This document shows positions 1,146 to 2,813 of a stretch of 4,063 nt of DNA, piece by piece. The translations under genes were made by a program, and so were the position numbers. Each line of letters opens with the position of its first letter. The first letter of the stretch is position 1. Where the stretch lies: the IMG/VR virus record IMGVR_UViG_2778261543_000002, one strand, 5' to 3'. The notes under the pieces were generated by a model. The model did no database searches, was not told where the DNA came from, and worked only from the letters and a program-made list of their open reading frames with translations. This DNA comes from a virus (taxonomy: Duplodnaviria; Heunggongvirae; Uroviricota; Caudoviricetes).

Positions 1146-1289
1146 ATAGAGACAAAAATATTAATCTGAAAAATATTTATTTCACGCCGTATATTTGATT
1201 GTTTAATGTGCAAGTACAATGACTTTTATTTTTTGTTGTGTATATAATCAAATATATGGTTATTTTTCACCATGCGTATTCAGCGCGCA
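1146..1289 (-). promoter_or_regulatory. AT-rich intergenic spacer, probable promoter region for the Rem-like / nin genes
   Basis: About 145 nt that is strongly AT-rich, with several TATA-like hexamers, lying between the hok terminator and the next minus-strand gene. No single convincing -35/-10 pair could be fixed. Confidence 0.3.
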
Positions 1290-1313
1290 ACAAAAAACCC
1301 GCCGAAGCGGGTT
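1290..1313 (-). terminator. rho-independent terminator of the hok transcript
   Basis: Minus-strand RNA aacccgc-UUCG-gcggguu (7 bp GC-rich stem, UUCG loop; plus 1296-1313) is followed directly by a U-run (plus A-run 1292-1297). On the plus strand the hairpin is not followed by Ts, so it is unidirectional. Confidence 0.6.
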
Positions 1314-1317
1314 AAGT

Positions 1318-1332
1318 GCGGGTGCATTGAGG
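1318..1332 (-). other. 3' fold-back (fbi-like) element of the hok mRNA
   Basis: Plus gcgggtgcattgagg (1318-1332) is the near-exact inverted complement of plus cctcaagcacccgc (1695-1708). In the minus-strand RNA the 5' GCGGGUGCUUGAGG can pair with the 3' CCUCAAUGCACCCGC (about 14 bp with one bulge). Confidence 0.5.
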
Positions 1333-1381
1333 ATGCCTGACACATCAGAGGTGGCGAGGGATTTCACCCCCGCCTGGTCTC

Positions 1382-1537
1382 TTACTCCTCAGGTTCGTAA
1401 GCTGTGAAGACAGCGACCTCCGTCTGGCCGGTTCGGATTCGTACCTCGCAGAGGTCTTTCCTCGTTACCAGTGCCGTCACTATGACGGTTAAACAGATGA
1501 CGATCAGAGCGATTAACATCGCCTTTTGCTGCTTCAT
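1382..1537 (-). CDS. hokD: Hok-family type I toxin, HokD/RelF-type (51 aa)
   Basis: ATG at 1537..1535 with AGGAG 9 nt upstream. Product MKQQKAMLIALIVICLTVIVTALVTRKDLCEVRIRTGQTEVAVFTAYEPEE: a single TM helix and a conserved Cys/charged tail, matching the E. coli HokD (RelF) sequence as I recall it. Stop TAA at 1384..1382. Confidence 0.88.
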   Translation of the reverse strand: MKQQKAMLIALIVICLTVIVTALVTRKDLCEVRIRTGQTEVAVFTAYEPEE

Positions 1538-1594
1538 AGCCTGCTTCTCCTTGCCTTTCGGCGCGTAAGAGGCTAACCTAGATTTGCCGTTCAT
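1382..1594 (-). CDS. mok-like upstream reading frame, in frame with hok (70 codons)
   Basis: ATG at 1594..1592 preceded by GAGG (8 nt spacer); no stop before the hok ATG, so the frame gives MNGKSRLASYAPKGKEKQA + Hok. Leader layout (GAGG-ATG ... gcaaggagaag...ATG) parallels the plasmid R1 mok/hok leader as I remember it. Whether it is translated is unknown. Confidence 0.4.
   Translation of the reverse strand: MNGKSRLASYAPKGKEKQAMKQQKAMLIALIVICLTVIVTALVTRKDLCEVRIRTGQTEVAVFTAYEPEE
1551..1579 (+). promoter_or_regulatory. sok-like antisense promoter (-35 TTGCCT, 17 nt spacer, -10 TAACCT)
   Basis: Plus-strand TTGCCT (1551-1556), 17 nt, TAACCT (1574-1579), lying inside the hok/mok leader and pointing against hok; same arrangement as the R1 sok promoter from memory. 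Hexamers are only moderate matches to sigma70 consensus. Confidence 0.4.
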
Positions 1595-1660
1595 AGATTG
1601 AGCCTCAGATTAATGTTAAGCGTCTTGCCGGACGCGTAATGTTAACTGGGGCTTTTCTCT
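1586..1660 (+). ncRNA. sok: Sok-like cis-antisense RNA (antitoxin of the hok locus)
   Basis: Predicted start about 7 nt after the -10. Transcript would be antisense to the mok start and SD (1592-1606), contains hairpin gcguc-uugccg-gacgc (1620-1635) and ends in a U-rich tract (1653-1660). Ends are approximate; inferred by analogy to R1 Sok. Confidence 0.4.
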
Positions 1661-1694
1661 GTCTGCCTTACAGTGGCATGCCTGAGGCAGACAG

Positions 1695-1708
1695 CCTCAA
1701 GCACCCGC
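1695..1708 (-). other. 5' end element of hok mRNA (pairs with the 3' fbi element; tac/ucb-like region follows)
   Basis: Minus RNA begins about GCGGGUGCUUGAGGCUGUCUGCCUCAGG. It is complementary to 1318-1332 and is followed by a local inverted repeat CUGUCUGCC...GGCAGACAG (plus 1661-1690), as in metastable hok mRNA 5' structures. Confidence 0.45.
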
Positions 1709-1712
1709 AGCA

Positions 1713-1741
1713 ATCTTACCGACACCGATAAGAAAACGCTA
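1713..1741 (-). promoter_or_regulatory. putative hok promoter (-10 TAAGAT; weak -35)
   Basis: Minus-strand TAAGAT (plus 1713-1718) lies about 6 nt upstream of the inferred mRNA 5' end; the -35 region is a poor match (TAGCGT/AGCGTT). Weak call. Confidence 0.25.
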
Positions 1742-1875
1742 TTTTTTATTGCCAGCACCTTCTATCCAGGCTAATTTATCTGCGTCAGAACGGCGCAATG
1801 CGCTCGCCTGAGATACGTTTACTTGCCATGGTAACAACAGGTAACGGCAATTGTTGTTTCTGTTTTGTTTCCTTC

Positions 1876-1906
1876 AAAAACCCCGGACCATCAATCCGGG
1901 GTTTTT
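1876..1906. terminator. bidirectional rho-independent terminator (terminates the upstream minus-strand operon)
   Basis: aaaaa-CCCCGGA-ccatcaa-TCCGGGG-ttttt: a 7 bp GC stem flanked by an A-run and a T-run, so either strand gives hairpin plus U-tract. Sits 86 nt downstream of the 273 aa gene stop. Confidence 0.6.
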
Positions 1907-1911
1907 GTTTG

Positions 1912-1962
1912 TTAACCCCAACGGCAAATCGAATACACCACCAGCGCCACCGCCATCACCAT
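1912..1962 (-). CDS. candidate micro-ORF, 16 aa hydrophobic peptide MVMAVALVVYSICRWG
   Basis: Minus-strand ATG at 1962 (second ATG at 1956 has AGGA 6 nt upstream), stop TAA at 1914..1912, between the 273 aa gene stop and the terminator. Very short and GGTG-rich, so it could be chance. Confidence 0.15.
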   Translation of the reverse strand: MVMAVALVVYSICRWG

Positions 1963-1991
1963 TCCTACCGTTGCGAATGCTTCAGGCCAGG

Positions 1992-2813
1992 TCATCGTAA
2001 AATATCCTCCACACCTACCAACCCGTTCTGCTTCAGATATTCCATCGCCTTATCAGGCAAGCTGCTTAAACTATTGGCGTACTTTAAGGAGTGAGCCAGA
2101 CGCTTAACCCACATTGTTAATTCGCTAACCTGGTTACCTGGCACTGGCGACGCTACTGTCTGTTCCAGAACGTCATCAGGTACTACCGGCTCTACTGCCA
2201 ACTGACTGGCATATTTGTTAATGGTAACGATAAGCTCTTGCTCGGCCTCATCCAGACAATCACCAACACCTCGCCTGTCACCGTCAAAATCATCGAAATC
2301 GGCACGAATCCTGGCAACCTTCAGGATTGCGGACAACACCTCACTAGGAATTGCCGGATAGTTGGTTGACGTTTCCGCGATTTCCCGAAAATTATTGGTT
2401 GACGAATTCTTGTTTTCCCGAAAGTTTCCGGACTGAAGCATGGCGGCGCGGCAGGCGTTCCATATTTCGGCAGCAATATCGCGCTCGCTATCGGTTAATT
2501 TGTACGTGGAAACATAGCCAGAGAGCATTTCTACGTTTTCCGGAGTTGCTTCTTCCGGCACTACCGGCGCTGGCGGGGCGATGCGTCCAAGCAACTTATT
2601 TACCTCTTTCGCCATCGCGTCATATTTATCTAAATGGCGATTAGCTTCTAAGCAGACTCGGCGCATCTGATCTGAGTTAACTCGTTTAACTGGATCTGCT
2701 TCCAGCGATGCCAGCGCAATCCGTGCCAGTTCCATTTGTTCACCACGGGTAAGCCCGTTTTCAAGCGGATTTTTAATGAACAATTCAATACGTTCTTTGG
2801 TAATAGTGGTCAT
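1992..2813 (-). CDS. hypothetical acidic phage protein (273 aa) with internal repeats
   Basis: Track ORF 1992..2813. ATG 2813..2811 preceded by AGGAG with a 6 nt spacer; that SD overlaps the TAA stop of the upstream 87 aa gene (TAAGGAG). Contains an 11 aa tandem repeat (FRENKNSSTNN / FREIAETSTNY) and two PVVP[ED][ED]-type segments. No family recognised. Confidence 0.8.
   Translation of the reverse strand: MTTITKERIELFIKNPLENGLTRGEQMELARIALASLEADPVKRVNSDQMRRVCLEANRHLDKYDAMAKEVNKLLGRIAPPAPVVPEEATPENVEMLSGYVSTYKLTDSERDIAAEIWNACRAAMLQSGNFRENKNSSTNNFREIAETSTNYPAIPSEVLSAILKVARIRADFDDFDGDRRGVGDCLDEAEQELIVTINKYASQLAVEPVVPDDVLEQTVASPVPGNQVSELTMWVKRLAHSLKYANSLSSLPDKAMEYLKQNGLVGVEDILR
2361..2427. repeat. 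imperfect ~33 bp tandem direct repeat inside the 273 aa CDS
   Basis: Unit 1 (2361-2394) gttggttgacg-tttccgcga-tttcccgaaa-atta; unit 2 (2395-2427) ttggttgacg-aattcttgt-tttcccgaaa-gttt. The 10 bp blocks TTGGTTGACG and TTTCCCGAAA are each repeated exactly; GTTTCCG also recurs at 2372-2378 and 2424-2430. Confidence 0.6.

What the first reader, a model, noticed from the sequence alone, without database searches (positions are those of the whole stretch)
1551..1660. Sok-like antisense RNA gene embedded in the hok leader
A plus-strand promoter (TTGCCT, 17 nt, TAACCT) lies between the mok-like and hok start codons. It would give a short RNA antisense to the mok SD and start, with a stem-loop (1620-1635) and a U-rich end (1653-1660). 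No plus-strand protein-coding frame explains this region.
Basis: inference. Interest (0 to 1): 0.45.

Follow-up and report, generated by a model that had tools for sequence, protein, structure and literature searches.

The report
Sok antisense RNA gene of prophage hok/sok
The flagged stretch is the promoter and gene of a Sok-type antisense RNA that keeps a prophage-borne Hok membrane toxin switched off. It is a nearly exact counterpart of the sokW RNA already annotated in phage 933W and tested in prophage Sp5, so it is real but ordinary.

Summary
TTGCCT (1551-1556), a 17-nt spacer and TAACCT (1574-1579) lie on the + strand between the mok-like ATG (1594, minus strand) and the hok ATG (1537, minus strand). 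A hairpin and a U-rich end follow.

The hexamers match the consensus at only 7 of 12 positions, which is no more than chance. Homology decides the matter. Both hexamers, the 21-bp interrupted hairpin and the U-tail are identical to sokW, which the phage 933W record annotates as a 71-nt antisense RNA. Takada et al. 2021 detected sokW by northern blot and inactivated it by mutating this same TAACCT box.

By that annotation, Sok in the window runs from G1586 to about 1656. Across 46 distinct hok leaders, positions 2 and 6 of the -10 box are invariant. The hairpin shows compensatory base changes and is more stable in the Sok sense in 44 of 44 loci.

The surrounding module looks intact: Hok (identical to HokD), an in-frame mok, tac/fbi long-range pairing and a terminator. 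It sits in the nin region of a lambdoid E. coli prophage. K-12's own hokD lacks everything upstream of position 1551.

Expression of this particular copy was not tested.

The parts
1551..1556 (+). sok promoter -35 box, TTGCCT. It overlaps the complement of the hok Shine-Dalgarno sequence by 2 nt.
   Evidence: Sequence. Identical in 933W sokW, and aligned with TTGCGC of the R1-type sok and TTGACC of K-12 sokC. TTG is present in 45/46 distinct leaders.
1574..1579 (+). sok promoter -10 box, TAACCT, 17 nt after the -35 box.
   Evidence: Identical to the sokW -10 box, which Takada et al. mutated to abolish sokW. A2 and T6 are present in 46/46 leaders and T1 in 36/46.
1586..1656 (+). Predicted Sok RNA. 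The start is G1586, 7 nt after the -10 box. The 3' end falls in the U-run at 1653-1656, or as far as about 1662 by the sokC annotation. Length is 71-77 nt.
   Evidence: Transferred from the annotated sokW (L063 677-747, 71 nt, starting 8 nt inside mokW) and from K-12 sokC. The TG at the start site is conserved in 43-44 of 46 leaders. The ends are inferred, not measured.
1586..1594 (+). Single-stranded 5' tail of Sok (GCCGUUCAU), complementary to mok codons 1-3. It is the most variable part of the RNA among paralogues.
   Evidence: Unpaired in the MFE fold. In the 16 long-hairpin loci the segment 5' of the hairpin (about 16 nt, including this 9-nt tail) shows 65% mean pairwise identity, against 93% for the hairpin. 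Six of the first 11 nt differ from sokW.
1600..1654 (+). Sok terminator hairpin: 9 bp, an A bulge, 9 bp, a 1x1 internal loop, then a 6-bp tip closing a 4-nt loop.
   Evidence: Fold of -31.4 kcal/mol, z = -5.24. 92.8% of cells are paired, against 34-52% with slid partners. Five pairs show compensatory change. The Sok-sense fold is more stable than its complement in 44/44 loci.
1620..1635 (+). 16-nt apical hairpin. It is an insertion relative to the Rfam consensus, R1-type Sok, sokB and sokC, and it marks the hokD/hokW clade.
   Evidence: Shown as an insertion in the Rfam alignment and in alignments A1, A2 and A5. Present in 16 of 44 distinct predicted Sok sequences, including Kluyvera loci and Sp5/933W.
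1592..1606 (-). mok translation initiation region: GAGG at 1606-1603, an 8-nt spacer, then ATG at 1594-1592. It lies wholly within the Sok-complementary stretch.
   Evidence: Sequence. The ATG aligns with the annotated mokC and mokW start codons.
1382..1594 (-). mok-like ORF of 70 aa, in frame with hok. It starts 57 nt upstream and shares the hok stop codon.
   Evidence: ORF list. The geometry matches K-12 mokC/hokC and 933W mokW/hokW.
1382..1537 (-). hok toxin gene (51 aa). The HokD protein is unchanged; the one difference from K-12 hokD is synonymous.
   Evidence: Pfam PF01848, 82.9 bits against a cut-off of 22. One synonymous difference from K-12 hokD. RefSeq annotation as hokD.
1292..1706 (-). 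Full-length hok mRNA, about 415 nt. It contains the 5' tac element (1706-1695), the anti-SD GCCCC (1652-1648), the fbi element (1332-1320) and a terminator hairpin (1313-1296) followed by a U-run.
   Evidence: Rfam RF01794 hit at 1706-1532, 110.7 bits against a gathering score of 59. The MFE fold pairs nucleotides 1-12 with the fbi element; z = -6.85. Terminator found by the scan. The 5' end is inferred from the Rfam model start and from the R1 hok primer GGGCGCTTGAGG.
1713..1718 (-). Probable hok promoter -10 box, TAAGAT. No good -35 box is present.
   Evidence: Aligns with TATAAT of hokC and TATGAT of the R1-type hok. This is an inference.

Best explanation
Positions 1551-1660 hold the promoter and gene of a Sok-type cis-antisense RNA. 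It belongs to a hok/mok/sok type I toxin-antitoxin module of the hokD/hokW lineage that looks intact by sequence, in the nin region of a lambdoid E. coli prophage.

Shown by sequence and homology: a promoter (TTGCCT, 17 nt, TAACCT) sits inside the first 19 codons of mok and faces away from hok. From G1586 it would give an RNA of about 71 nt with a short single-stranded 5' tail, a long interrupted hairpin and a U-tail. That RNA is perfectly complementary to the hok mRNA leader from mok codon 3, across the mok start codon and Shine-Dalgarno sequence, to the anti-SD box.

Inferred from work on R1 and on hokW-sokW:
- Sok is made constantly and decays fast.
- Full-length hok mRNA is locked shut by 5'-3' (tac/fbi) pairing.
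- Slow 3' trimming opens the mRNA. Sok then pairs with the mok initiation region, blocks mok translation and so blocks the coupled hok translation.
- The duplex is cut by RNase III.
- When Sok supply stops, through loss of the element or prophage induction, the stable hok mRNA pool is translated and Hok damages the inner membrane.

The divergent 5' tail probably keeps this copy from cross-reacting with other hok/sok copies in the same genome.
For: - Rfam RF01794 covers 1532-1706 at 110.7 bits, E = 1.7e-25.
- The 933W record annotates mokW, hokW and sokW with the same geometry. The window matches sokW exactly in the -35 box, the -10 box, the hairpin and the U-tail. The hok/sok cassette at 1310-1714 is 91.4% identical to that of Sp5.
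- Takada 2021 provides the experiments: sokW RNA seen by northern blot, the -10 mutant is toxic, sokW supplied in trans rescues, RNase III and Hfq contribute partly, and sokW disappears after mitomycin C.
- Promoter positions are conserved in 46 distinct leaders from Escherichia, Shigella, Kluyvera, Photorhabdus, Erwinia and others.
- The Sok fold has z = -5.24. The hairpin covaries. The Sok-sense fold is more stable than its complement in 44/44 loci, mean -23.7 against -13.4 kcal/mol.
- hok is a Pfam HOK_GEF member. The full-length mRNA fold shows tac/fbi pairing.
- The mechanism is taken from PMC9841398 and PMC1635323.
Against: - No transcript data exist for this copy.
- The hexamers match the consensus at only 7/12, which is no better than chance in this window.
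- Part of the promoter conservation is confounded by constraints on the sense strand. The -35 box overlaps the hok Shine-Dalgarno sequence, and the spacer and -10 box lie in a conserved hok mRNA helix. The invariant GTAAGAGGC was also my selection anchor.
- The related loci are not phylogenetically independent, so the counts of 44/44 and 46/46 overstate the support.
- Chromosomal hok/sok loci tested earlier (hokA, hokB, hokC) did not give post-segregational killing (bioRxiv 2025.08.07.668861).
- The MFE fold of an arbitrarily 3'-truncated mRNA did not reproduce the open tac/anti-SD form.
Confidence: 0.9

Rival explanations
1. Relic locus. Sok may be transcribed, but the module as a whole is functionally dead, as reported for several chromosomal hok loci. 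In that case the RNA has no consequence for the cell.
For: [quoted passage not shown] K-12's hokD copy is truncated at position 1551 and lacks mok and sok. No good -35 box is evident for the hok promoter.
Against: Every element is present and uninterrupted here: the hok ORF, the mok start codon and Shine-Dalgarno sequence, tac/fbi, the terminator and the sok promoter. The cassette is 91% identical to hokW-sokW, which is functional in Sp5. HokD is toxic when expressed. The locus is kept in 3890 of 5426 complete E. coli genomes at 80% coverage or more.
Confidence: 0.06
2. There is no antisense gene in this copy. The conservation of 1551-1660 reflects only the needs of the hok mRNA leader on the minus strand (anti-SD, mok initiation region, hok Shine-Dalgarno sequence, helices). 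The + strand hexamers are a chance by-product.
For: The hexamer match is at chance level. The Rfam model that hits is in the hok sense. The -35 box overlaps the hok Shine-Dalgarno sequence.
Against: The variation pattern in the -10 box is TAnnnT: positions 2 and 6 are invariant while positions 3-5 vary freely. That is the signature of a promoter, not of a helix. G-U pairs make the hairpin about 10 kcal/mol more stable in the Sok sense in 44/44 loci. The identical promoter drives a detectable sokW RNA, and mutating it releases toxicity.
Confidence: 0.03
3. The + strand of this region encodes a small protein rather than a regulatory RNA.
For: Two + strand ORFs touch the edges of the region: 1404-1568 (54 aa, GTG start) and 1639-1731 (30 aa).
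Against: Neither ORF covers 1569-1638, and neither has a Shine-Dalgarno sequence evident in the sequence. They are antisense by-products of hok and its leader. The 5'-tail region tolerates indels among loci, which does not fit a coding sequence.
Confidence: 0.01

Closest known systems
sokW / hokW / mokW of Stx2 phage 933W and Sakai prophage Sp5 (AF125520.1; Takada et al. 2021, PMC8621323)
   Same: The -35 box (TTGCCT), the 17-nt spacing and the -10 box (TAACCT) are identical. So are the start-site position (8 nt inside mok), the hairpin with its 16-nt apical insertion and the U-tail. mok is in frame, 57 nt upstream of hok. The cassette is 91.4% identical over 405 nt. The same 27-aa ORF lies upstream.
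   Different: Six of the first 11 nt of Sok differ, and with them mok codons 2-4. One spacer base and two discriminator bases also differ. Hok here is HokD-identical, with a different C-terminus (..FTAYEPEE) from that encoded by Sp5. The position in the phage differs: the nin region next to ninB here, the right end near attR in Sp5. About 190 nt containing a strong terminator separate the 27-aa ORF from the hok promoter here; in Sp5 the gap is 30 nt.
hok/sok (parB) of plasmid R1 and R1-type IncF plasmids
   Same: The architecture is the same: the sok promoter lies between the mok and hok start codons (TTGCGC, 17 nt, TATCCT), the start site is 7 nt after the -10 box, and the RNA has a 5' single-stranded tail, a hairpin and GGGGCU followed by a U-rich tail. 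tac/fbi pairing is also shared. The mechanism is taken from this system.
   Different: Hok is only about 44% identical, the figure given for HokW against Hok. The R1-type Sok hairpin is short, giving about 58-64 nt. By the paper's numbering R1 mok starts 58 nt upstream and is out of frame. R1 is plasmid-borne. The plasmid locus I aligned (L005) was found with an R1 Hok sequence recalled from memory, and it differs slightly from true R1 in the Sok tail (compare the primers).
E. coli K-12 sokC / mokC / hokC (gef)
   Same: mok is in frame, 57 nt upstream. The annotated sokC starts 8 nt inside mokC. The GTAAGAGGC spacer motif and the GGGGCUUUUCUCU terminator tail are shared.
   Different: sokC is 59 nt and lacks the 16-nt apical hairpin. 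Its -10 box is CACTCT and its -35 box is TTGACC. It is a chromosomal locus next to IS186.
E. coli K-12 hokD (relF) in cryptic prophage Qin
   Same: The Hok protein is the same. The hok coding region, 3' UTR, fbi element and terminator are nearly identical.
   Different: In K-12 the homology stops at window position 1551, just upstream of the hok Shine-Dalgarno sequence, and relE follows. The K-12 copy therefore has no mok, no Sok gene body and no sok -10 box. The window is the intact form.

Membership tests
[quoted passage not shown] | A small hydrophobic Hok/Gef toxin ORF | tested here: met
   The 51-aa ORF at 1537-1382(-) scores 82.9 bits on PF01848 against a cut-off of 22. RefSeq annotates its homologues as hokD.
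[quoted passage not shown] | A hok mRNA leader with the family's conserved sequence and structure | tested here: met
   RF01794 full-length match at 1706-1532(-), 110.7 bits against a gathering score of 59, E = 1.7e-25.
[quoted passage not shown] | An upstream overlapping mok reading frame with its own Shine-Dalgarno sequence, to which hok translation is coupled | tested here: inconclusive
   The ORF (1594-1382), GAGG and an 8-nt spacer are present and align with the annotated mokC and mokW. Translational coupling itself cannot be tested here.
[quoted passage not shown] | Long-range 5' tac / 3' fbi pairing that closes the full-length mRNA | tested here: met
   In the MFE fold of 1706-1292, nucleotides 1-12 pair with 1332-1320; z = -6.85. 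This is a prediction only.
Sok antisense RNA | Its own promoter between the mok and hok start codons, reading antisense | tested here: met
   TTGCCT, 17 nt, TAACCT at 1551-1579. It aligns with the sokW, R1-type sok and sokC promoters. Key positions are conserved in 46 leaders. Promoter activity in this copy was not measured.
Sok antisense RNA | A short RNA with a single-stranded 5' tail, one hairpin and a U-rich 3' end, complementary to the mok initiation region | tested here: met
   Fold, covariation and strand asymmetry. The complementarity is perfect by construction, because the RNA is cis-encoded.
Sok antisense RNA | The RNA is actually transcribed and is unstable, and the duplex is cleaved by RNase III | not testable with these tools
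   Shown only for R1 Sok and sokW in the literature.
[quoted passage not shown] | A phenotype: killing or lysis when Sok is lost | not testable with these tools
   Shown for hokW-sokW in Sp5. Not known for this copy.

The most novel reading that the evidence does not exclude
Two features of the phage-borne hokD/hokW lineage may be functional adaptations rather than drift.

1. The 16-nt apical hairpin lengthens the Sok terminator stem to about 21 bp. It might alter Sok's half-life or its handling by RNase III or Hfq.
2. The segment 5' of the hairpin, which includes the single-stranded tail, is hypervariable: 65% identity against 93% for the hairpin. It might act as an address code that lets up to nine hok/sok copies coexist in one genome without cross-protection.

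In this nin-region copy, N-antiterminated P_R transcription running into the sok promoter could in addition couple Hok release to prophage induction.
Probability: 0.2. Interest if true: 0.3.

Novelty: already known. Interest (0 to 1): 0.1.

Why it matters
There is little new biology here. The value is mainly for annotation. RefSeq/PGAP labels only 'hokD' at such loci and omits the Sok RNA and mok. The K-12 reference copy of hokD is a truncated form lacking both. A correct annotation records a complete type I toxin-antitoxin module in the nin region of a widespread lambdoid prophage. Such modules can affect prophage stability and lysis timing, as hokW-sokW does in the Stx2 prophage Sp5.

Tried and rejected
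- The consensus promoter/terminator scan found neither the sok promoter nor its terminator. The promoter is too weak a match, and the hairpin is interrupted.
- Rfam gave nothing on the + strand. Its 'sok' model is built in the hok-mRNA sense, so the hit cannot serve as evidence of orientation.
- I looked for hokW in the early and nin regions of Sp5 and found nothing. It lies at the right end of the prophage, annotated there as 'MokC'.
- I folded a 3'-truncated hok mRNA (1706-1345) hoping to see the open tac/anti-SD conformation. The MFE fold instead gave the 5' metastable-type hairpin. The true processing site is unknown, so I drew no conclusion.
- PHROG, Pfam and NCBIfam gave no match for the 27-aa upstream ORF.
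- I considered + strand coding and rejected it: no ORF spans the region.
- The window's 83-aa ORF (894-1145) is not homologous to K-12 rem, although it has the same size and position.

Full report
**The observation.** On the + strand, TTGCCT lies at 1551-1556 and TAACCT at 1574-1579, separated by 17 nt. GCGTC-TTGCCG-GACGC lies at 1620-1635 and TTTTCTCT at 1653-1660. On the minus strand a 51-aa ORF starts at 1537. An in-frame ATG sits 57 nt upstream at 1594, preceded by GAGG at 1606-1603. The promoter-like hexamers therefore do lie between the two start codons, and no + strand ORF spans 1569-1638.

The hexamers are weak matches, 7 of 12 to TTGACA/TATAAT. The consensus scan did not list them. 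Matches of this quality occur 33 and 24 times on the two strands of the window, against 25.6 +/- 5 per strand in shuffles. The pattern alone is not evidence.

**What the region is.** Rfam RF01794 ('sok') matches 1706-1532 at 110.7 bits against a gathering score of 59, E = 1.7e-25. The match is on the minus strand. The model begins with GGGUGCUUGAGG and ends at the hok AUG. An R1 hok mRNA primer in PMC1635323 has the same 5' motif. The model therefore describes the hok mRNA leader and does not by itself show an antisense gene.

The 51-aa ORF is a Hok/Gef toxin: PF01848, 82.9 bits against a cut-off of 22. Its only difference from K-12 hokD is synonymous.

The surrounding genes place the locus in the nin region of a lambdoid prophage, co-oriented with the early-right genes. 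They include a NinB/Orf-family gene (DUF1367) and several phage families of unknown function. A stretch 80% or more of 1280-1760 is found in 3890 of 5426 complete E. coli genomes, with a median of 2 and up to 9 places per genome. It also occurs in 101 phage records. RefSeq annotates only hokD there, with no sok RNA.

**Homology to known Sok genes.**
- The phage 933W record (AF125520.1) annotates mokW, hokW and a 71-nt 'SokW antisense RNA' that starts 8 nt inside mokW.
- The window aligns to it without gaps. The -35 box, the -10 box, the entire hairpin and the GGGGCUUUU tail are identical. The differences are one spacer base, two discriminator bases and six of the first eleven bases of the RNA.
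- Transferring the annotation gives Sok = G1586 to T1656. K-12 sokC is annotated with the same start geometry and runs a few bases further, which corresponds to about 1662 here.
- An R1-type IncFII plasmid locus aligns with TTGCGC, 17 nt, TATCCT at the same columns. I found that locus with an R1 Hok sequence recalled from memory. It differs slightly from true R1 in the Sok tail, as the primers show.

Takada et al. 2021 (PMC8621323) worked on the Sp5 copy of hokW-sokW. The hok/sok cassette of the window (1310-1714) is 91.4% identical to it. They detected sokW RNA by northern blot. They showed that a '-10 promoter-less' mutant releases HokW toxicity; by their primers YO-421/422 the change is TAACCT to GAGCCG. 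Toxicity was rescued by sokW in trans. RNase III and Hfq contributed partly, and sokW disappeared after mitomycin C.

**Conservation.** I collected 53 Hok-encoding loci from species-representative genomes and added the reference loci fetched earlier. I extracted the leaders that carry the GCCTCTTAC motif, which gave 46 distinct sequences from Escherichia, Shigella, Kluyvera, Pseudocitrobacter, Citrobacter, Photorhabdus, Pantoea, Erwinia and others.

In the Sok sense, the -10 box has A at position 2 and T at position 6 in 46/46 leaders and T at position 1 in 36/46, while positions 3-5 vary freely. The TTG of the -35 box is present in 45/46, and the TG at the start site in 43-44/46.

Three caveats apply:
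- The nine bases just upstream of the -10 box were my selection anchor.
- The -35 box overlaps the hok Shine-Dalgarno sequence.
- The loci are related by descent.

**Structure.** The predicted RNA (1586-1660) folds at -31.4 kcal/mol, z = -5.24. It has a 9-nt free 5' tail and an interrupted 21-bp hairpin spanning 1600-1654.

On an alignment of 43 distinct predicted Sok RNAs, 92.8% of cells pair, against 34-52% when the partners are slid. Five pairs show compensatory change, for example A-U 28 / G-C 12 with no mispairs at one position.

A hairpin is mirrored on the other strand, so I compared the two strands. The Sok-sense fold is more stable than its complement in 44 of 44 loci (mean -23.7 against -13.4 kcal/mol), owing to G-U pairs. 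This argues that the + strand RNA is itself under selection.

The 16-nt tip is an insertion relative to the Rfam consensus, sokB, sokC and the R1-type Sok. It marks the hokD/hokW lineage and is present in 16 of 44 distinct sequences.

**The rest of the module.** The full-length hok mRNA (1706 to about 1292) folds with its first 12 nt paired to 1332-1320, the tac/fbi lock; z = -6.85. It ends in a terminator at 1313-1296. In that fold the mok Shine-Dalgarno sequence pairs with GCCCC at 1652-1648.

mok is in frame with hok, as in mokC and mokW. In contrast, mokB is annotated 58 nt upstream of hokB and out of frame, and the numbering in PMC9841398 gives the same for R1 mok.

In K-12's Qin prophage, homology to the window stops at position 1551 and relE follows. 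The K-12 hokD therefore lacks mok, the Sok gene body and the sok -10 box. The window holds the intact form.

**Mechanism.** What is shown is the anatomy and the homology. The steps below are inferred from work on R1 and sokW:
- Sok is made continuously and is short-lived.
- The closed full-length hok mRNA is stable and is not translated.
- After 3' trimming the mRNA opens, and Sok pairs across the mok start codon and Shine-Dalgarno sequence.
- Translation of mok, and of the coupled hok, is blocked, and RNase III cuts the duplex.
- When Sok synthesis stops, Hok is made and damages the inner membrane.

For a prophage copy the likely roles are stabilisation of the prophage, help with lysis on induction as reported for Sp5, or both.

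The segment of Sok 5' of the hairpin, which includes the single-stranded tail, is far more variable among paralogues than the hairpin: 65% against 93% pairwise identity in the long-hairpin clade. Copies within one genome carry different tails. PMC9841398 reports that resident chromosomal Sok RNAs did not repress R1 hok. Together these fit the idea that the tail insulates copies from one another, but this is an inference.

**Verdict.** The element has been annotated since the 933W genome record and tested experimentally in 2021. This copy is one more allele in a very common prophage module. Novelty: already known. Interest: low. The one thing not established is that this particular copy is expressed.

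Noticed in passing
window 1912-1995 (-): An unannotated 27-aa hydrophobic ORF (MTWPEAFATVGMVMAVALVVYSICRWG). Its ATG overlaps the stop codon of the preceding 273-aa gene (ATGA). It is conserved at 86-89% immediately upstream of hokW in Sp5 (L061 35869-35792, with the same ATGA overlap onto a different upstream gene) and in L001, L007, L012 and L025. It has no Pfam, NCBIfam or PHROG match. It may travel with the hok/sok cassette.
   Followed up: partly
window 1715-1906, including the hairpin at 1875-1907: About 190 nt separate the 27-aa ORF from the hok promoter here, against about 30 nt in Sp5. The stretch contains a strong hairpin (13 bp, 7 of them G-C) flanked by A-runs and T-runs, so it probably terminates transcription in both directions. 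It would shield hok from upstream P_R-operon transcription in the absence of antitermination. Several sub-threshold Rfam hits here are just terminator look-alikes.
   Followed up: partly
window 1292-1373 (-): A sub-threshold Rfam hit to isrK (RF01394): 30 bits against a gathering score of 50, E = 9e-4. It covers the hok mRNA 3' UTR, that is the GC hairpin, the fbi element and the terminator. Whether isrK and this 3' UTR are related was not examined.
   Followed up: no
window 1219-1248 (+): The best sigma-70-like match in the area is ATGACT, 18 nt, TATAAT (10/12). It lies in the AT-rich gap between the 83-aa gene and the hok terminator and points antisense into the 3' end of hok. 0.8 such matches are expected by chance in the 800 nt scanned.
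   Followed up: no
window 1532-1706 (-): Rfam family RF01794 is named 'sok antitoxin', but it matches in the hok-mRNA sense, from hok +1 to the hok AUG. Hits to it mark the hok leader strand, not the strand of the Sok RNA. RefSeq records of this locus carry no sok or mok feature at all.
   Followed up: yes
window 1382-1594 (-): mok is in frame with hok: it starts 57 nt upstream and shares the stop codon. 'Mok' here is therefore Hok with a 19-aa N-terminal extension, as in mokC and mokW. mokB, and R1 mok by the published numbering, start 58 nt upstream and are out of frame.
   Followed up: partly
L004 (plasmid NZ_CP033882.1), about 600-745: A non-mobilizable plasmid (MOB-suite replicon type IncHI1B) carries a hok leader and Sok segment, including the 16-nt apical hairpin, with no hok ORF downstream. 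It looks like an orphan Sok remnant.
   Followed up: no
L062 (K-12 Qin) against window 1551: The breakpoint of the K-12 hokD truncation falls exactly at the first T of the sok -35 box, at the upstream edge of the hok Shine-Dalgarno sequence. relE lies directly upstream of it.
   Followed up: yes
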